This document shows positions 1 through 5,049 of a DNA stretch of 5,049 nt, one piece after another (the stretch's first letter is position 1; each line of letters opens with the position of its first letter). The stretch spans positions 1-5,049 of IMG/VR virus record IMGVR_UViG_3300022758_000133. The stretch is one strand, 5' to 3'. The DNA comes from a virus. The notes beneath the pieces are model-generated. The model was not told where the DNA came from. It searched no databases and saw nothing but the letters and a program-made list of their open reading frames with translations. Position numbers and translations under genes: made by a program.

Positions 1-118
1 AGGACGCGATTTTGAAGATACTGGCGAAGCTTCGCCGCAACGTCTATCAGTTCGTGAACGCGTCCAAGAACTGAAAGCCGCTAAACTCAGGCGCGTTATG
101 GAAGAGAATCAATCATGA
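1..118 (+). CDS. VP4: VP4 replication initiator, C-terminal fragment; a duplicate of 4923-5040 caused by circular wrap-around.
   Basis: Reading from base 2 gives GRDFEDTGEASPQRLSVRERVQELKAAKLRRVMEENQS*, identical to the C-terminus of the 305-aa ORF at 4123-5040. The stop is TGA at 116-118. Confidence 0.9.
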   Translation, partial: GRDFEDTGEASPQRLSVRERVQELKAAKLRRVMEENQS

Positions 119-127
119 TCCTTAAGG
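1..127. repeat. Terminal direct repeat, copy 1; identical to 4923-5049. This is the wrap-around overlap of a circular 4922-nt genome.
   Basis: Base-by-base comparison shows 1-127 and 4923-5049 are identical over 127 nt. The repeat carries the VP4 C-terminus, its stop codon and the VP5 ATG. Confidence 0.97.
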
Positions 128-934: not shown

Positions 935-951
935 TTACTAATAACTCATAT

Positions 952-972
952 AAGGGATGGTTTCCATCCTTT
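952..972 (+). terminator. Small hairpin downstream of the VP3 stop.
   Basis: AAGGGATGG (952-960) pairs with CCATCCTTT (964-972) around a TTT loop, with one G-T wobble. T-rich sequence follows. Confidence 0.3.
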
Positions 973-984
973 CAAAATCCTTTC

Positions 985-1013
985 GATCGCCCGCTTGCGG
1001 CGATCTTTTTTTT
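985..1013 (+). terminator. Rho-independent-type terminator downstream of VP3.
   Basis: GATCGCC (985-991) pairs with GGCGATC (999-1005) around a 7-nt loop. An uninterrupted T8 run follows directly at 1006-1013. Confidence 0.65.
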
Positions 1014-1030
1014 CAGATATCTCAACGATT

Positions 1031-1100
1031 TGCGCACGGGTACACACCGGAACCAGTTACATACTTGATGTAACTGGTTCCGGTGACACCCCGGTGCGCG
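1031..1100. repeat. Large intergenic stem-loop with a perfect 18-bp inverted repeat core (1045-1062 / 1068-1085). Candidate replication origin or VP4 nick site.
   Basis: CACCGGAACCAGTTACAT (1045-1062) is the exact reverse complement of ATGTAACTGGTTCCGGTG (1068-1085). The loop is ACTTG (1063-1067). An imperfect outer helix adds GCGCAC (1032-1037) pairing with GTGCGC (1094-1099), and GG (1039-1040) pairing with CC (1091-1092). Confidence 0.85.
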
Positions 1101-1129
1101 TGCGGGTAACCAACGCACTGCTCGAATGT

Positions 1130-1157
1130 TTGCTTTCTCTTTGACTTGTGGTATATG
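1130..1157 (+). promoter_or_regulatory. Weak sigma70-like promoter candidate upstream of VP1.
   Basis: TTGCTT (1130-1135), a 16-nt spacer, then TGgTATATG (1149-1157), which has the form of an extended -10. A better -35 hexamer, TTGACT (1141-1146), has no properly spaced -10. The host is unknown, so the consensus may not apply. Confidence 0.25.
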
Positions 1158-1205
1158 CTTTGCCTTACGGTGATAAAGCTTTTAAGTCTTGTGTTTTAGA
1201 GCCGT

Positions 1206-1249
1206 AAGGCGGCTAGACGACGGGGTTCTCGGTCTAAGCCGCCTTTTTT
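1206..1249 (+). terminator. Strong terminator-like hairpin plus T6, 26 nt upstream of the VP1 ATG.
   Basis: GGCGGCTAGAC (1208-1218) pairs with GTCTAAGCCGCC (1232-1243): 11 bp with one bulged A at 1236. The loop has an inner helix, and T6 follows at 1244-1249. The left arm overlaps the right arm of a second 9-bp helix, GCCTTACGG (1162-1170) / CCGTAAGGC (1202-1210). Confidence 0.55.
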
Positions 1250-1275
1250 GTTATCTATAGCTATTGGATAGGTAC

Positions 1276-2940
1276 ATGTCTTCTGTTAATCGCGCTACAC
1301 AGCATCTTTTCTCGCAGGTTCCTTCGACTCAGATTCCTCGATCAGTCTTTGACCGTTCTCATGGATATAAGACGACTTTTGATTCTGGTTATCTTGTACC
1401 TTTTTATGTAGATGAAGTACTTCCTGGCGATAGCTTTAAGCTGACAGCTACTTTGTTTGCTCGTTTAGCTACGCCGATTGTCCCTTTTATGGACAATCTT
1501 TATTTGGAGACTTTCTTTTTCTTTGTTCCTAATCGACTTCTTTGGGACAACTGGCAGAAGTTCAATGGTGAGCAGAAGAACCCTACTGACTCTACAGACT
1601 TTTTGATTCCTACGGTTTCCGGCACGAATGTTCAGAATCAGACTCTTTGGGATTACTTTGGTCTTCCTACGAATGTGAATAAAGCGCTTGAAGTTAATGC
1701 GTTGCCTTTCCGCGCTTACAATTTGATTTTTAATGAGTGGTTTAGAGACGAGAATCTTCAGGAGTCTTTGAAAGTCCCGACTGGCGACGGTCCTGACAAT
1801 TTGTCTGACTACAACTTAGTTCGTCGTGGTAAGCGTCATGACTACTTCACGTCATGTTTGCCGTGGCCGCAAAAAGGTCCAGGTGTAGAAATTTCGCTTG
1901 GTGGCTCTGCGAAGGTTAATGGCGACGTTACTTTGGCGGCTCAGTACGGTTCGTATCATGTTGATAATGGCATTGGTTCTGTTGCCAATTGGTCTAACTC
2001 TTATCCTGTTGCTTTTACTGATTCTGTCAATTTAGGTTCGAAGGATCAGAAATGGCCGCAAGTTTCTAAAACCATTCCTTTGAGTATTACTGCAACTAAT
2101 CCTTCAGATCCAGGAGGAATTTCTTTTTATGCTGGTCGTGGTTTAGTTTTAGCTAACAATTTGTCCGCTGATTTGTCTGGTGCTACTCCGATTTCAATCA
2201 ATGATCTTCGTCAAGCTTTCCAGATCCAGAAGCTCTATGAGCGTGACGCACGCGGCGGTACGCGATACACAGAGATCTTGCGTTCTCACTTTGGCGTAAT
2301 TTCTCCTGACGCTCGCTTGCAACGACCTGAATATCTTGGCGGATCTTCTGCTCGAATTTCGATCAATCCTGTCCAACAGACTTCTGCATCGAGCGATGTG
2401 ACTCCCCAGGGAAATCTTGCAGCTTATGGTGTAGTCTCAGACAGTTTCCATGGTTTCTCGAAGTCTTTTGTTGAGCATGGCTACGTCTTCGGCTTTGTGA
2501 ATGTTCGTGCTGATTTGACTTATCAGCAAGGCCTTAATAGGATGTGGTCGCGCCAAGGCCGCTTCGATTTTTATTGGCCTGTGCTCGCGCATCTTGGCGA
2601 ACAAGCTGTTCTCAATAAAGAGATTTACGCTCAAGGCACTGCTGACGACGATGATGTTTTTGGTTATCAAGAACGTTATGCAGAATATCGTTATTATCCT
2701 GGCCAAATTACAGGTAAGTTCCGTTCGACCGATCCTCAACCTTTGGATTCTTGGCATTTAGCGCAGAAGTTCAGCTCTTTGCCAACGCTTTCTTTTCAAT
2801 TCATTCAAGATAATCCGCCCGTCGATCGCGTAGTTGCCGTTAAGGATGAGCCGCAGTTTTTGTTTGACTCGTATATTCGTTTGAAGTGTGCTCGTCCGAT
2901 GCCTGTGTATTCAGTGCCTGGTTTAGTTGATCATTTTTAA
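1276..2940 (+). CDS. VP1: VP1 major capsid protein (554 aa from ATG 1276).
   Basis: The N-terminus MSSVNRATQHLFSQVPSTQIPRSVFDRSHGYKTTFDSGYLVPFYVDEVLPGDSFKL, and later ...INDLRQAFQIQKLYERDARGGTRYTEILRSHFGV..., are hallmark gokushovirus VP1 (F-like capsid) blocks as I remember them. The frame is long, intact and T3-biased. The ORF track starts at TTG 1264; ATG 1276 is the more likely start. Confidence 0.95.
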   Translation: MSSVNRATQHLFSQVPSTQIPRSVFDRSHGYKTTFDSGYLVPFYVDEVLPGDSFKLTATLFARLATPIVPFMDNLYLETFFFFVPNRLLWDNWQKFNGEQKNPTDSTDFLIPTVSGTNVQNQTLWDYFGLPTNVNKALEVNALPFRAYNLIFNEWFRDENLQESLKVPTGDGPDNLSDYNLVRRGKRHDYFTSCLPWPQKGPGVEISLGGSAKVNGDVTLAAQYGSYHVDNGIGSVANWSNSYPVAFTDSVNLGSKDQKWPQVSKTIPLSITATNPSDPGGISFYAGRGLVLANNLSADLSGATPISINDLRQAFQIQKLYERDARGGTRYTEILRSHFGVISPDARLQRPEYLGGSSARISINPVQQTSASSDVTPQGNLAAYGVVSDSFHGFSKSFVEHGYVFGFVNVRADLTYQQGLNRMWSRQGRFDFYWPVLAHLGEQAVLNKEIYAQGTADDDDVFGYQERYAEYRYYPGQITGKFRSTDPQPLDSWHLAQKFSSLPTLSFQFIQDNPPVDRVVAVKDEPQFLFDSYIRLKCARPMPVYSVPGLVDHF

Positions 2941-2949
2941 GGAGTTGCT

Positions 2950-3012
2950 ATGGCTTTAGTTATTTGGCTTGCTGTTGTTAGTACTGTTGTTATCTTTGCT
3001 TTAGGACAGTGA
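2950..3012 (+). CDS. 20-aa hydrophobic mini-ORF (MALVIWLAVVSTVVIFALGQ); putative single-pass membrane peptide or coupling leader ORF.
   Basis: A consensus SD, AAGGAG (2939-2944), overlaps the VP1 stop and lies 5 nt upstream of ATG 2950. The peptide has no charged residue. 13 of 20 codons end in T, as in the bona fide genes. The stop TGA 3010-3012 is 1 nt before the VP2 ATG at 3014. It falls below the ORF-track length cutoff. Confidence 0.45.
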   Translation: MALVIWLAVVSTVVIFALGQ

Positions 3013-3013
3013 T

Positions 3014-3616
3014 ATGGGTTTTGCTTTGTCAGAAGCAATTGGCGGAATCGCTAATTTAGGTAGTTCTGCTACATCAGCTTATTTTAGTTGGAAGCATCAG
3101 AAAGAAGCGATGCGGAATCGTCATCAGTGGGGAAGTTGAAGATCTTCGCAAAGCAGGTCTTAAATCCAATTCTTTCGTCTGGCGGTCAAGGTGCTTCAGG
3201 CAACGCTCCGATCATTGAGCCGGTTGACGTTGCTGGTGCTATGCATTCTGGTGCTGATACAGAGCTTAAGAAAGCTCAGGCTAAGCAGGTTGAAGTTCAG
3301 AATTCTGCTTTGGCTGCGGATACTGAGCTTAAGAAAGCTCAGACTGAAGTTGCTAAAGAAGCTTCAACACTCACTTATGCGCAAGCTGTTGGCCAAGGCT
3401 GGCAGAATCGCATATATGATGAGACTTTGAAGCAAGCTCAGAATGCTACTGAAAATTTCTGCTTTGGCTACTGAGCGAAATAAGATGGTTTTTGACTATA
3501 TGAAGCAGAATCCTACTGCTTGGAAAGCAGGTCAGTTTATGCAATTGCTTAATCCTTTTGGTACTGCTGCGCCTGTAGTCAATTCTGCTGTTGGCGCTGC
3601 GAGGCTGGCTAAGTGA
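3014..3616 (+). CDS. VP2: VP2 DNA pilot/minor capsid protein, split as sequenced into four segments over three frames (about 199 aa when reconstructed).
   Basis: Segment a, 3014-3130, frame 2: MGFALSEAIGGIANLGSSATSAYFSWKHQKEAMRNRHQW (in-frame stop at 3137). Segment b, 3132-3161, frame 0: EVEDLRKAGL. Segment c, 3163 to about 3453, frame 1: NPILSSGGQGASGNAP...LKQAQNATE; this is the body of the 128-aa track ORF 3088-3474. Segment d, 3455-3616, frame 2: ISALATERNKMVFDYMKQNPTAWKAGQFMQLLNPFGTAAPVVNSAVGAARLAK*. Joined, a-b-c recreate the remembered VP2 motif ..E.M.N..HQ.EVEDL.KAGLNPIL... The T3 codon bias switches frame at exactly these junctions. For example, 3132-3161 has 5 of 10 T3 codons in frame 0 and 0 of 10 in frame 1. 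Confidence 0.8.
3256..3342 (+). repeat. Internal direct repeat in VP2: a 24-nt unit present twice, 63 nt (21 codons) apart.
   Basis: GATACAGAGCTTAAGAAAGCTCAG (3256-3279) versus GATACTGAGCTTAAGAAAGCTCAG (3319-3342), with 1 mismatch. Both encode DTELKKAQ. Confidence 0.85.
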
Positions 3617-3711
3617 TAGATACGATCTTAAAGTTCGTTAATGTTTTGCTGAATTCCGGTTCAGCGATTTGGGAAGCCTTTAAGGCTGTTAAGAAGTTTT
3701 TTAAAAATTGA
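3613..3711 (+). CDS. 32-aa small ORF (GTG start), amphipathic and basic at the C-terminus; hypothetical.
   Basis: It reads (M)IDTILKFVNVLLNSGSAIWEAFKAVKKFFKN*. GTG 3613 overlaps the VP2 stop (GTGA), with GAGG at 3601-3604 lying 8 nt upstream. Its stop, TGA 3709-3711, overlaps the SD of ORF8. 13 of 32 codons end in T. It fills an otherwise unexplained 100-nt gap. Confidence 0.3.
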   Translation: MIDTILKFVNVLLNSGSAIWEAFKAVKKFFKN

Positions 3712-3913: not shown

Positions 3914-4144
3914 ATGGCTACTGCGGCTTTTCGTTTGACTCTTAAAGACTTTGGCGTTTGCTGGCTTATCCCTGTCGAAGAAAGCTATGTTGGTCGTCGC
4001 AAGTTAGTGACTTGGACGCTTTATCGCGATCGCCCTTGGGCCGCTCTTTGTTCATTTCAGGTTCGTTTTCGTTCTTCTCGTGAGACGATTCTTCGTGAGC
4101 TTCATATTGCGTGTCTTGAAAAATGCCTTGCTTTCACCCGATAA
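3914..4144 (+). CDS. Hypothetical 76-aa protein (Arg/Trp/Cys-rich) overlapping the VP4 start by 22 nt.
   Basis: It is an ATG-initiated ORF from the track. 41 of 76 codons end in T, the same periodicity as VP1 and VP4, which supports real coding. There is no obvious SD and I recognise no family motif. Confidence 0.55.
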   Translation: MATAAFRLTLKDFGVCWLIPVEESYVGRRKLVTWTLYRDRPWAALCSFQVRFRSSRETILRELHIACLEKCLAFTR

Positions 4145-5040
4145 CAGCTTATCGACTCGCCGGATCTAAGACTAAAGACGATACTCGCAACGCTGTAACT
4201 TTTGATCCTTCGAAGGCTATTCCGTTTTCTGAGTTTAAGATTCCTTGCGGTCAATGCATTGGTTGTCGTCTTTCTAAGTCTCGTGAATGGGCTGCTCGAT
4301 GTGTAGTTGAAGCTAAGTCACATAAGAACAACATGTTTCTTACGCTGACTTATGATGATGCTCATTTGCCTGAAGATGGCTCTCTTCACTATGAGCACTT
4401 CCAGTTGTTCATGAAGCGCATGCGTAAATACTTCATGAGCCGTTTTGGTCAGCAACTTCGCTTTTTTATGTGCGGTGAGTATGGCGATAAGCTTGGTCGT
4501 CCTCACTATCACGCCATAATTTTTGGCGTGACGTTTGTAGATAAACAGCTCTGGTCGATTCGTCGAGGCAATAACTTATATCGTAGTCGTACGCTTGAGA
4601 AACTTTGGCCGTATGGTTTTAGTTCAATTGGCGCAGTCAATTTTGAGACTGCGGCTTATGTTGCTCGTTATGTTACGAAGAAAATCACAGGTCCTTTAAA
4701 GCTTGAGCATTATGACGGCAAAGTTGCTGAGTTTTGTCATTGCTCTTTAAAGCCTGGTATTGGTCATGATTTTTGTGAAAAGTACATGACTGACATTTAT
4801 ACTAATGACCGTCTTATTCTTAGTGAGAAGATAATGATGTCTCCTCCGGCTTACTTTGATAAGTTGCTTGAGCGTTCTGATATCGTTCGCTTTGAAGAGA
4901 TTAAGCGTCTTCGAGAAAAGCGAGGACGCGATTTTGAAGATACTGGCGAAGCTTCGCCGCAACGTCTATCAGTTCGTGAACGCGTCCAAGAACTGAAAGC
5001 CGCTAAACTCAGGCGCGTTATGGAAGAGAATCAATCATGA
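4123..5040 (+). CDS. VP4: VP4 rolling-circle replication initiator (HUH endonuclease superfamily), 305 aa.
   Basis: It begins MPCFHPITAY.., a typical gokushovirus VP4 N-terminus, and has a Cys cluster PCGQCIGCR. Motif 1 is FLTLTY. The HUH motif is RPHYHAIIF, with HYH at nt 4504-4512. The catalytic di-tyrosine helix is AAYVARYVTKK, with the two Tyr spaced i/i+4 as in the phiX174 A protein. The stop is TGA 5038-5040. Confidence 0.95.
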   Translation: MPCFHPITAYRLAGSKTKDDTRNAVTFDPSKAIPFSEFKIPCGQCIGCRLSKSREWAARCVVEAKSHKNNMFLTLTYDDAHLPEDGSLHYEHFQLFMKRMRKYFMSRFGQQLRFFMCGEYGDKLGRPHYHAIIFGVTFVDKQLWSIRRGNNLYRSRTLEKLWPYGFSSIGAVNFETAAYVARYVTKKITGPLKLEHYDGKVAEFCHCSLKPGIGHDFCEKYMTDIYTNDRLILSEKIMMSPPAYFDKLLERSDIVRFEEIKRLREKRGRDFEDTGEASPQRLSVRERVQELKAAKLRRVMEENQS

Positions 5041-5049
5041 TCCTTAAGG
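4923..5049. repeat. Terminal direct repeat, copy 2; identical to 1-127.
   Basis: It is an exact 127-nt match to the window start. It includes the VP4 stop and the VP5 ATG (5037-5039). Confidence 0.97.

What the first reader, a model, noticed from the sequence alone, without database searches (positions are those of the whole stretch)
2939..3013. Strongly signalled 20-codon all-hydrophobic mini-gene between VP1 and VP2
AAGGAG is the best SD in the genome. It overlaps the VP1 stop and sits 5 nt upstream of an ATG that opens MALVIWLAVVSTVVIFALGQ. That peptide has no charged residue and is about the length of a short transmembrane helix. Its codon bias matches the real genes. Its stop is one base before the VP2 ATG. 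As far as I recall, no lysis gene has been assigned in gokushoviruses, which lack a phiX174 E homologue. A highly translated micro-membrane peptide is therefore a plausible candidate for a lysis, membrane-perturbing or superinfection-exclusion factor. The less novel alternative is a leader ORF that delivers ribosomes to VP2 by termination-reinitiation.
Basis: partly seen in the sequence, partly recalled or inferred. Interest (0 to 1): 0.65.

Follow-up and report, generated by a model that had tools for sequence, protein, structure and literature searches.

The report
Conserved 20-codon membrane-peptide gene in gokushovirus
A never-annotated 20-codon gene for an all-hydrophobic, membrane-helix-sized peptide sits between the capsid and pilot-protein genes of a common human-gut gokushovirus lineage; it is kept intact by selection on the peptide, which makes it a directly testable candidate for the unknown lysis or membrane function of these phages.

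Summary
VP1 stops at TAA 2938-2940. AAGGAG (2939-2944) overlaps that stop. ATG is at 2950, the ORF runs 2950-3012 and encodes MALVIWLAVVSTVVIFALGQ, and the VP2 ATG follows at 3014.

The window is a complete 4,922-nt circular gokushovirus genome. Across 76 unique junction sequences of its clade (human-gut viromes, metagenomes, six GenBank genomes), 73 carry the ORF at exactly 20 codons. One has 19 codons, one is frameshift-fused to VP2, and one otherwise intact genome (L041) lacks it cleanly.

Substitutions show coding-type constraint. Nucleotide changes by codon position are 53/13/117. 41% of codon changes alter the amino acid, against 71% expected (p=3e-15). None of 53 replacements in codons 2-19 introduces a polar, charged, Pro or stop codon. 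Codons 16-19 are also frozen at synonymous sites because they carry VP2's own SD (AGGA).

No database, annotation or paper names this ORF. It is clade-specific. Other gokushovirus lineages carry unrelated small transmembrane ORFs in the same slot, and in six genomes one follows a LAS-fold peptidase-like gene.

Best reading: a real, highly translated membrane micropeptide gene that is also linked to VP2 translation. A lysis or membrane-permeabilising role is the leading hypothesis but is untested.

The parts
1276..2940 (+). VP1 major capsid gene. Its TAA stop (2938-2940) overlaps the SD of the mini-ORF.
   Evidence: ORF list; Pfam Phage_F E=5e-193.
2939..2944 (+). Shine-Dalgarno AAGGAG, 5 nt upstream of the mini-ORF ATG. 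It is the strongest SD in the genome. In outgroups and in L041 the homologous TAAGGAG serves VP2 directly.
   Evidence: SD variants across the clade: AAGGAG in 41 of 47, the rest AAGAGG, GAGGAGG, AAGGAT or TGAGG. Outgroup junctions.
2950..3012 (+). 20-codon ORF plus TGA, encoding MALVIWLAVVSTVVIFALGQ. This is a clade-specific, unannotated micro-gene for a single hydrophobic helix.
   Evidence: Present in 75 of 76 unique clade junctions. Purifying selection in this frame only among the sense frames. Stop codon varies TGA/TAA/TAG at a fixed position. Gene-like codon usage. Absent from a 15-billion-protein collection.
3003..3006 (+). AGGA, VP2's own SD core, embedded in codons 18-19 (TTA GGA) of the mini-ORF, 7 nt before the VP2 ATG.
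   Evidence: Codons 16-19 show 1.5 synonymous changes per codon against 9.0 for codons 7-15 (Poisson p=8e-10). They use non-preferred codons TTA and GGA.
3014..3616 (+). VP2 DNA pilot protein gene. Its start lies 1 nt after the mini-ORF stop. In this window the gene is broken by three single-base insertions (~3129, ~3162, ~3456).
   Evidence: Alignment with KX513869 VP2 and L045. GenBank annotations of relatives. Intact VP2 in L041.

Best explanation
The ORF at 2950-3012 is a real protein-coding micro-gene, specific to one human-gut gokushovirus clade. It lies in about 64 nt found between the ancestral 'VP1-stop/SD' (TAAGGAG) and the VP2 start codon.

Shown:
- It has the strongest ribosome-binding site in the genome, placed where ribosomes terminate on the most highly translated gene.
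- It is kept at 20 codons with a fixed stop position.
- Its sequence evolves under purifying selection that preserves an uninterrupted hydrophobic helix. Only small residues are tolerated at position 11 (G/S/A/C) and position 12 is mostly T.
- Its last four codons double as VP2's own SD, and its stop lies 1-4 nt from the VP2 ATG.

Inferred:
- The peptide is made in large amounts late in infection, roughly in proportion to capsid protein.
- It partitions into the host cytoplasmic membrane as a roughly 19-residue helix and acts there.
- My preferred mechanism is concentration-dependent membrane perturbation or depolarisation, which contributes to the timing or execution of host lysis. This would resemble a holin or a single-gene lysis protein.
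- Ribosomes finishing the ORF are handed to, or unmask, the VP2 start. VP1, the peptide and VP2 would then form a translational relay that helps set VP2 dosage.

My sub-confidences are: real translated gene about 0.85; membrane-inserted functional peptide about 0.7; lysis or membrane-permeabilising role about 0.3-0.35; some coupling to VP2 translation about 0.5.
For: Anatomy.

Conservation:
- All six GenBank relatives have the ORF in an unannotated 73-74-nt gap.
- 56 IMG/VR contigs match an ORF-specific pattern, and 25 further metagenome loci were found.
- Of the 76 unique clade junctions, 73 have 20 codons, 1 has 19, 1 is frameshift-fused and 1 lacks the ORF.

Selection, by Fitch counts on an NJ tree of 65 unique sequences:
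- 157 codon changes, of which 64 change the amino acid. That is 0.41 against 0.71 expected (p=3e-15).
- The other sense frames give 0.78 and 0.96.
- Nucleotide changes by codon position are 53/13/117.
- Restricted to codons 2-15, outside the VP2 SD, 53 of 140 changes alter the amino acid (p=4e-15).
- None of 53 replacements in codons 2-19 goes to a polar, charged, Pro or stop codon, although 28% of possible replacements would (p=2e-8).
- pN/pS is 0.28, against 0.81 and 2.1 in the other sense frames.

Other features:
- The frame relation to VP2 varies (spacer of 1 or 2 nt, all three stop codons used), so this is an independent ORF and not part of VP2.
- Codon usage is gene-like.
- There is no RNA structure (z=+0.76) and no terminator that could explain the conservation.

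Context:
- No peptidase or endolysin domain is encoded in the window.
- Gokushoviruses are reported to lack a lysis gene (PMC7062461).
- In other gokushovirus lineages the same VP1-VP2 slot holds unrelated 25-37-aa TM ORFs. Five of 16 gaps of at least 66 nt have one, against 0.5 expected from shuffles.
- In 6 of 6 genomes examined, a LAS-fold peptidase-like gene in this slot is followed by a conserved ~30-aa TM ORF just before VP2. That looks like an endolysin plus holin-like cassette.
- A Bacillota-MAG microvirus repeats the TAAGGAG, 28-aa TM ORF, TAAGGAGG architecture.
Against: No experiment or expression data exist; the function is inferred from sequence alone.

- The peptide is only 20 residues, with no charged flanks and no soluble domain. 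It is shorter than any characterised phage lysis protein and below the 25-codon cut-off used for Sgl candidates (PMC7693330).
- One otherwise intact clade genome (L041) lacks it, so it may be dispensable.
- Most gokushoviruses have no equivalent, so lysis in the subfamily cannot depend on it in general.
- A second conserved unannotated ORF (32 aa, amphipathic and basic, 3613-3711) is an equally untested lysis candidate.
- High expression of a membrane toxin from the start of late translation would seem to risk premature killing.
- The antisense frame that shares wobble positions is open in 65 of 65 sequences and shows the same syn/nonsyn ratio. dN/dS alone therefore does not prove the sense frame. 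The sense frame is favoured by its SD, fixed start and stop, the position-2 conservation pattern, and the single-strand coding of all known Microviridae genes (PMC3394797).
- No homology to any known lysis, holin or toxin family was found.
Confidence: 0.4

Rival explanations
1. Pure translational relay or leader ORF. The ORF exists only to capture ribosomes at the strong SD or at the VP1 stop and deliver them to the VP2 start by termination-reinitiation. The peptide itself is an inert by-product.
For: The stop-to-VP2-ATG distance is 1-4 nt in every genome. The VP1 stop overlaps the SD. The 3' end of the ORF carries VP2's ribosome-binding site and is frozen at synonymous sites. In outgroups VP2 is directly coupled to VP1.
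Against: Codons 2-15, outside the VP2 ribosome-binding site, are under amino-acid-level purifying selection (53 of 140 changes non-synonymous against 70% expected, p=4e-15). Hydrophobicity is strictly retained (0 of 53 polar replacements), and length is fixed at 20 codons in 73 of 75 ORF-bearing junctions. None of this is needed for coupling. VP2 has its own SD (AGGA, 7-nt spacing). L041 and all outgroups translate VP2 from the same TAAGGAG without any leader.
Confidence: 0.12
2. A membrane micropeptide with a non-lytic role. Possibilities are a partner or antagonist of the pilot protein VP2's glycine-rich hydrophobic N-terminus (a chaperone or targeting factor during assembly), a superinfection-exclusion factor that blocks incoming VP2/DNA translocation, or a modulator of a host membrane protein.
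For: The ORF is genetically and translationally linked to VP2. Position 11 accepts only small residues (G57/S6/A1/C1) and position 12 is mostly T, a pattern typical of helix-helix packing faces (my inference). The peptide has no charged flanks, unlike most holins. It may be dispensable for basic propagation (L041). Superinfection immunity of unknown mechanism exists in an E. coli gokushovirus (PMC7062461), although that phage lacks this ORF.
Against: There is no direct evidence. No sequence similarity to the VP2 N-terminus was found. Very high expression signals are unusual for a stoichiometric partner of a roughly 12-copy virion protein.
Confidence: 0.22
3. Not a sense-strand gene. The conservation would reflect the antisense ORF that shares third-codon positions (window 3038-2937, 33 aa), or a nucleotide-level element.
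For: Antisense frame 1 is open across the ORF in 65 of 65 sequences and gives the same non-synonymous fraction, 0.38.
Against: The antisense open block has no conserved start, and its N-terminal extent varies from 23 to 73 codons. Its codon positions would vary 10/51/110, with position 2 more variable than position 1, unlike the real genes here. No complementary-strand genes had been reported in Microviridae before the single exception noted in PMC3394797. The sense ORF has an SD, an ATG (GTG in one sequence) and a fixed stop. There is no significant RNA fold (z=+0.76), terminator or promoter.
Confidence: 0.04
4. A chance ORF in a T-rich spacer with no function.
For: T-rich sequence readily yields hydrophobic ORFs. 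One clade genome lacks it.
Against: It is retained intact in 75 of 76 unique junctions, while flanking VP1 synonymous sites and the VP2 N-terminus diverge. Periodicity and selection statistics are as above. One premature stop was observed, at the last codon, against roughly 7 that I estimate under neutrality (inference).
Confidence: 0.02

Closest known systems
Single-gene lysis proteins of small phages (phiX174 E; ssRNA-phage Sgl such as L, LysM and the candidates of Chamakura et al. 2020, PMC7693330)
   Same: A small phage without a holin-endolysin pair. A short ORF with a legitimate SD and one hydrophobic transmembrane-like segment. A lineage-specific gene with no homologues elsewhere, consistent with de novo birth. 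PMC7693330 reports one functional candidate below 25 codons.
   Different: It is 20 residues, against 91 for E (my knowledge) and mostly 25 or more for Sgl candidates. It is not overprinted on another gene. It has no soluble or charged domain. Its translation signals are very strong, whereas E is weakly expressed (my knowledge). No sequence similarity was found. Lytic activity is untested.
Holin-like ~30-aa TM peptide that follows a LAS-fold peptidase-like gene in the VP1-VP2 slot of other gokushoviruses (found here: L075, L081, L247-L250; consensus ..NWDxIxLIxTNxxALFxKSP..)
   Same: The same genomic slot, ending immediately before VP2. A single hydrophobic helix of similar size. Unannotated in GenBank MH572422.
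   Different: The window genome encodes no peptidase. The mini-peptide lacks the acidic N-terminal and basic C-terminal flanks. Profile-profile comparison finds no relationship (probability 0.1%).
Ibs-type type I toxin peptides of enterobacteria (18-19 aa, almost entirely hydrophobic, membrane-depolarising when over-expressed; from my own knowledge, not tested here)
   Same: Length and composition. They show that an uncharged peptide of about 19 aa can insert into the membrane and be toxic.
   Different: Ibs genes are chromosomal toxin-antitoxin loci repressed by antisense Sib RNAs. No such antisense regulator or homology is evident here.
Translationally coupled small hydrophobic genes or leader ORFs (e.g. 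Ff phage gene VII coupled to gene V; gene VII and IX products of 32-33 aa; my knowledge)
   Same: An ssDNA phage with a tiny hydrophobic product. The start lies next to the stop of a highly translated upstream gene, and the stop abuts the next gene's start.
   Different: The Ff products are virion cap proteins of filamentous phages. Here nothing indicates a structural role, and the downstream gene has its own SD.

Membership tests
Single-gene lysis (Sgl/amurin) proteins | Expression alone causes host lysis or growth arrest | not testable with these tools
   Requires cloning and induction; nothing computational substitutes for it.
Single-gene lysis (Sgl/amurin) proteins | Candidate criteria of PMC7693330: legitimate SD, predicted TMD and ORF of at least 25 codons | tested here: not met
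   The SD AAGGAG is present. Residues 2-18 form an uninterrupted hydrophobic stretch. The length is 20 codons, below the 25-codon cut-off. That paper did find one functional gene below 25 codons.
Single-gene lysis (Sgl/amurin) proteins | Homology to phiX174 E or a known Sgl | tested here: not met
   No Pfam, PHROGs or NCBIfam hit better than E=0.1.
Holins | At least one transmembrane domain | tested here: inconclusive
   A 17-19-residue uncharged hydrophobic segment is conserved. No dedicated TM predictor was available. From remembered Hessa-scale values I estimate that membrane insertion is favourable (about -2 kcal/mol).
Holins | Charged, hydrophilic C-terminal (cytoplasmic) tail | tested here: not met
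   The peptide ends ..FALGQ. Only position 20 occasionally carries R or H.
Holins | Genetic linkage to an endolysin gene | tested here: not met
   No peptidase or muramidase domain is found in any window ORF. By contrast, L075, L081 and L247-L250 have a LAS-fold gene next to their TM ORF.
Leader ORF acting only through termination-reinitiation | Stop codon within a few nt of the downstream start | tested here: met
   The spacing is 1-4 nt in all clade sequences.
Leader ORF acting only through termination-reinitiation | Encoded peptide sequence free to vary; downstream gene lacks an independent ribosome-binding site | tested here: not met
   The peptide is under purifying selection. VP2 has a conserved AGGA 7 nt upstream.
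Type I toxin peptides (Ibs-like) | Cis-encoded antisense RNA antitoxin; chromosomal or plasmid toxin-antitoxin locus | tested here: not met
   No promoter-like site on the minus strand near the ORF. The locus is a phage structural-gene junction. No homology was found.
VP2 (pilot protein) N-terminal segment, split or duplicated | Sequence similarity to the VP2 5' end, or a fixed frame relation to VP2 | tested here: not met
   Shuffle tests give p=0.23 for protein and p=0.73 for DNA. The spacer of 1 or 2 nt changes the frame relation between relatives. The VP2 N-terminus is itself intact and homologous to that of outgroups.

The most novel reading that the evidence does not exclude
The 20-residue peptide is the lysis effector of this abundant human-gut gokushovirus clade, acting as a holin-like or Sgl-like factor. 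It would be the shortest phage lysis protein known. The unrelated TM micro-ORFs found in the same VP1-VP2 slot of other lineages, some paired with a LAS peptidase, would then show that gokushoviruses repeatedly invent lysis genes de novo at this junction, as ssRNA phages do with sgl genes. That would solve the long-standing question of how gokushoviruses lyse their hosts.
Probability: 0.3. Interest if true: 0.8.

Novelty: new variant of a known kind. Interest (0 to 1): 0.6.

Why it matters
Gokushoviruses are among the most abundant ssDNA phages in the human gut and in the environment. No lysis gene has been assigned to them (PMC7062461). Large surveys deliberately skip tiny or overprinted ORFs (PMC9239249).

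This ORF is invisible to gene callers; the exact peptide is absent from a collection of 15 billion predicted proteins. Yet it is as constrained as the start of VP2. It offers a 63-nt, synthesis-ready candidate that can be tested directly for lysis, membrane depolarisation, exclusion or VP2 dosage control.

The survey also points to the VP1-VP2 junction as a hotspot where microviruses place small membrane-protein genes. One example is a previously unremarked peptidase plus ~30-aa TM cassette. If the peptides are membrane-active, they are minimal models for peptide antibiotics and for de novo gene birth in very small genomes.

Tried and rejected
1. Origin by duplication of the VP2 5' end (SD plus first codons). 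A visual resemblance did not survive shuffle tests (protein p=0.23, DNA p=0.73).
2. RNA structure or terminator in the gap as the conserved element. MFE z-score is +0.76, and there is no terminator- or promoter-like site there.
3. Homology to known families. Pfam, PHROGs and NCBIfam gave only noise: FixQ-like and ilv leader peptide hits with E of 0.07 or worse.
4. Homology to the peptidase-associated TM family. hhalign probability is 0.1%.
5. Antisense ORF. It cannot be excluded by dN/dS, which gives the same ratio, but it lacks a conserved start and fits the positional pattern worse.
6. My first pattern scan of IMG/VR was mis-specified by one N and found nothing. The corrected scan found 56 contigs.
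7. Search for further deletion variants like L041 in IMG/VR. None beyond L041; the two other hits are unrelated phages.
8. Host identification through the genome collection. The closest match is only 68% VP1 identity, in a Veillonella-binned contig without the ORF, so there is no host assignment.
9. Eight literature searches for gokushovirus lysis, hydrophobic or small-protein work found no description of this ORF.
10. A structure prediction of the peptide itself was not possible, because it is below the 30-aa limit.
Full report
WHAT THE WINDOW IS

The 5,049-nt window ends with a 127-nt copy of its beginning, so it is one complete circular genome of 4,922 nt. Its ORFs and Pfam matches identify a gokushovirus:
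- VP4 replication protein (REP_ORF2-G2P)
- VP5 (Phage_ORF5)
- VP3 scaffold (Chlamy_scaf)
- VP1 capsid (Phage_F, E=5e-193)
- VP2 pilot protein
- a 39-aa basic VP8-like ORF

The nearest GenBank records are six human-associated gokushovirus genomes at 85-88% nucleotide identity: KX513869, KT264829, PV067908-10 and MG945560.

CHECKING THE OBSERVATION

- VP1 stop TAA at 2938-2940
- AAGGAG at 2939-2944, overlapping that stop
- a 5-nt spacer
- ATG at 2950
- 20 sense codons encoding MALVIWLAVVSTVVIFALGQ
- TGA at 3010-3012
- one base, then the VP2 ATG at 3014

AGGAG occurs four times on the + strand, and only this copy precedes a start codon. The other genes have SD cores of 4 nt or less.

Codon usage is gene-like. 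The CAI-type index is 0.686. In-frame windows of VP1, VP3 and VP4 average 0.708 +/- 0.10. Open off-frame windows average 0.376, and none of 480 reaches the ORF's value.

AAGGAG cannot serve VP2 in this genome. It lies 70 nt upstream of the VP2 ATG, and the VP2 frame is closed by TAG at 3002-3004.

CONSERVATION

All six GenBank relatives have an unannotated 73-74-nt gap between VP1 and VP2. In all of them the gap contains the same ORF, with the ATG and stop in register.

A VP1-based scan of IMG/VR returned 80 loci. Every locus with VP1 identity of 79% or more carries the ORF, except L041. An ORF-specific DNA pattern finds 56 IMG/VR contigs, all of microvirus size. A peptide-based scan of metagenomes adds 25 loci, mostly labelled human-gut and all from the same clade.

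Of the 76 unique clade junction sequences, 73 have exactly 20 codons. One has 19 codons (Q20 changed to stop). One has an extra T in a T-run that fuses the ORF to VP2, probably an error. One (L041) lacks the ORF.

The stop codon is TGA, TAA or TAG at the same position. The spacer to the VP2 ATG is 1, 2 or 4 nt. The ORF's frame relative to VP2 therefore differs between relatives. That rules out a conserved fusion or frameshift product and shows an independent cistron whose end is held next to the VP2 start.

IS IT CODING?

I counted changes on a neighbour-joining tree of 65 unique sequences.
- Nucleotide changes fall 53/13/117 on codon positions 1/2/3.
- 64 of 157 codon changes alter the amino acid. 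That is 0.41 against 0.71 expected (p=3e-15).
- The two other sense frames give 0.78 and 0.96.
- For comparison, the first 25 codons of VP2 give 0.38 and the last 50 codons of VP1 give 0.23.
- Pairwise pN/pS is 0.28 in frame, against 0.81 and 2.1 out of frame.

The 53 replacements in codons 2-19 are all exchanges among A, V, I, L, F, G, S, T and C. None creates a charged, polar, Pro or stop codon, although 28% of possible single-base replacements would (p=2e-8). W6, L7, A8, V10 and F16-G19 are invariant. Position 11 accepts only G, S, A or C. Position 20 is free (Q, R, H, N, C, G or stop).

One caveat applies. The antisense frame that shares wobble positions is open in all sequences and shows the same ratio, 0.38. 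I reject it for four reasons:
- It has no conserved start, and its extent varies from 23 to 73 codons.
- Its second codon position would vary more than its first.
- The sense ORF has an SD, an ATG and a fixed stop.
- All known Microviridae genes are read from one strand (PMC3394797).

No RNA structure (z=+0.76), terminator or promoter accounts for the conservation.

A SECOND, NUCLEOTIDE-LEVEL LAYER

Codons 16-19 (TTT GCT TTA GGA) show 1.5 synonymous changes per codon. Codons 7-15 show 9.0 (Poisson p=8e-10). Codons 18 and 19 also use non-preferred codons. They spell AGGA (3003-3006), 7 nt before the VP2 ATG, which is VP2's own SD. So the 3' end of the mini-gene is also the VP2 ribosome-binding site.

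With codons 16-20 excluded, the peptide-level constraint remains. In codons 2-15, 53 of 140 changes are non-synonymous (p=4e-15).

EVOLUTIONARY SETTING

In L041 the sequence reads TAAGGAGTTGATT-ATG(VP2), a clean absence of 64 nt in an otherwise intact genome. No other such variant exists in IMG/VR.

Among 88 unique junctions from other gokushoviruses, about three quarters have the VP2 start within 18 nt of the VP1 stop, typically as TAAGGAG(G)-N6-8-ATG. I therefore infer that the mini-gene sequence was gained between an ancestral SD and VP2 at the base of one clade. The next relatives, at 68% VP1 identity or less, lack it.

A duplication of the VP2 5' end is not supported as the source.

THE SAME SLOT IN OTHER LINEAGES

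Larger VP1-VP2 gaps in other lineages hold hairpins, hydrophilic ORFs or unrelated small TM ORFs:
- L054: 25-37 aa
- L071: 32 aa
- L073: 30 aa
- L160 and L149: a homologous pair of about 30 aa

Five of 16 gaps of at least 66 nt contain a TM-like ORF, against 0.5 expected from shuffled gaps.

A Bacillota-MAG microvirus (L219) repeats the architecture: TAAGGAG, then a 28-aa TM ORF, then TAAGGAGG and the next gene.

The most informative case is a ~100-aa ORF in the slot of L075 and L081. It belongs to a large family with an invariant H-x6-D...H-x-H motif.
- Its profile matches the Hedgehog N-terminal (LAS zinc-peptidase) fold at E=3e-6.
- Its AlphaFold model (pLDDT 96) superposes on Sonic hedgehog N-domain (TM 0.74).
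- The model also hits, more weakly (TM 0.54), the zinc-containing C-terminal domain of pneumococcal VldE.

In all six genomes examined (L075, L081, L247, L248, L249 and GenBank MH572422), this gene is followed by a homologous ~30-aa TM ORF that ends just before VP2. That arrangement looks like an endolysin plus holin-like cassette.

The window's peptide is not homologous to that family, and the window encodes no peptidase. The analogy is positional only.

WHAT IS KNOWN

The eLife study of E. coli gokushoviruses states that gokushoviruses lack the phiX174-type lysis gene (PMC7062461). Roux et al. found M15-type peptidases in a minority of genomes (PMC3394797). The global microvirus survey omits overprinted and tiny ORFs (PMC9239249).

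For ssRNA phages, lysis genes are small, TMD-bearing, SD-led, lineage-specific ORFs that arise de novo. One functional example was below 25 codons (PMC7693330).

The exact 20-aa peptide is absent from a 15-billion-protein collection. None of the GenBank relatives annotates it. My literature searches found no description of it.

INTERPRETATION

I am confident (about 0.85) that this is a translated gene. I consider it likely (about 0.7) that its product is a functional membrane-embedded helix.

I prefer a membrane-perturbing or lysis-timing role, possibly working with host autolysins. Four points favour it:
- The genome has no other assigned lysis function.
- The gene satisfies the SD and TMD logic used successfully for Sgl discovery.
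- The same slot elsewhere holds a peptidase plus TM-peptide pair.
- From my own knowledge, uncharged peptides of about 19 aa (Ibs toxins) are known to depolarise membranes.

This role is unproven (about 0.3-0.35). Points against it:
- the peptide's extreme shortness and lack of charged flanks
- its very strong expression signals
- its absence from L041 and from most gokushoviruses
- a second conserved micro-ORF (3613-3711, 32 aa, amphipathic and basic) that is an equally untested candidate

A contribution to VP2 translation through stop-start juxtaposition is plausible (about 0.5), but it cannot be the whole story. A VP2-partner or superinfection-exclusion role remains open (about 0.2).

VERDICT

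The feature is a new, unannotated, clade-specific micro-gene of a known general kind: small phage membrane peptides. It has real but unproven relevance to the open question of gokushovirus lysis. Interest 0.6.

Noticed in passing
window 3613-3711 (+): A second unannotated micro-ORF: 32 aa, VIDTILKFVNVLLNSGSAIWEAFKAVKKFFKN, amphipathic with a basic C-terminus. Its GTG/ATG start overlaps the VP2 stop. It is conserved in 60 of 63 unique clade sequences. Gene callers label it 'hypothetical protein' in more than 500 contigs. It is an alternative lysis or membrane candidate.
   Followed up: partly
window ~128, ~3129, ~3162, ~3456: Four single-base insertions relative to all relatives break VP5 (an extra A at ~128) and VP2 (extra bases in a G-run, an A-run and a T-run). 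They are probably sequencing or assembly errors. The mini-ORF itself is intact.
   Followed up: yes
window 1-127 and 4923-5049: An exact 127-nt terminal direct repeat. The window is a circular 4,922-nt genome read slightly more than once.
   Followed up: yes
window 3914-4144 (+): A 76-aa ORF upstream of and overlapping the VP4 start. It is also open in L041 (80 aa). It has no Pfam match and its function is unknown.
   Followed up: partly
window 935-1275: A roughly 340-nt non-coding spacer between VP3 and VP1. It contains a terminator-like hairpin (985-1005, followed by T8), a perfect 18-bp inverted repeat (1045-1062 and 1068-1085), and a second imperfect one (1162-1210). It may be an origin, packaging or terminator region.
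   Followed up: no
L075 61-465, L081 57-461 (offsets from the first base of the VP1 stop codon); L247 1354-1770; L248 796-1211; L249 2501-2921; L250 (MH572422) 701-1114: In another gokushovirus lineage the VP1-VP2 slot holds a ~100-aa LAS-fold (Hedgehog-N-like, H-x6-D...HxH) peptidase-like gene. A homologous ~30-aa TM ORF (..NWDxIxLIxTNxxALFxKSP..) follows immediately. This is a candidate endolysin plus very small holin cassette. The TM ORF is unannotated in GenBank MH572422.
   Followed up: partly
L219 ~5479-5600: A distant microvirus in a Bacillota MAG contig (VP1 47% identical) has TAAGGAG-N8-ATG, then a 28-aa TM ORF (MDTIKKVFKVFIWFMLIMCVFYLLGLLL), then TAAGGAGG and the next gene. This is the same architecture as the finding.
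   Followed up: no
L041 1986-2001: The only clade genome without the mini-ORF. It shows a clean 64-nt absence, so AAGGAG directly serves VP2. All other genes are intact.
   Followed up: yes
L246 2501-2600: An extra T in the T-run of codons 15-16 puts the mini-ORF in frame with VP2, giving MALVIWLAVVGTVIVFCFRTVIMGFGW... It is either a homopolymer error or a natural fusion variant.
   Followed up: no
L160 (30 codons, starting 4 nt into the VP1 stop codon) and L149/L074 (31 codons): Two environmental gokushoviruses share a homologous ~30-aa TM ORF that overlaps the VP2 start: MDWKETWAAIVDGIIYLVLAIFEFIKGDRQ and MGHPGQWWADIVDGITYLILAIWEFIKGDDE. This is another independent family in the same slot.
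   Followed up: no
L212 (URZS01000056.1): The closest relative in the bacterial genome collection (VP1 68%) is a 6.9-kb contig binned with an uncultured Veillonella. It has no mini-ORF. This is a weak host hint only.
   Followed up: no
window 3038-2937 (-): An antisense 33-codon ORF (TTG start) shares wobble positions with the mini-ORF. The corresponding frame is stop-free across the mini-ORF in 65 of 65 relatives, but it has no conserved start.
   Followed up: yes
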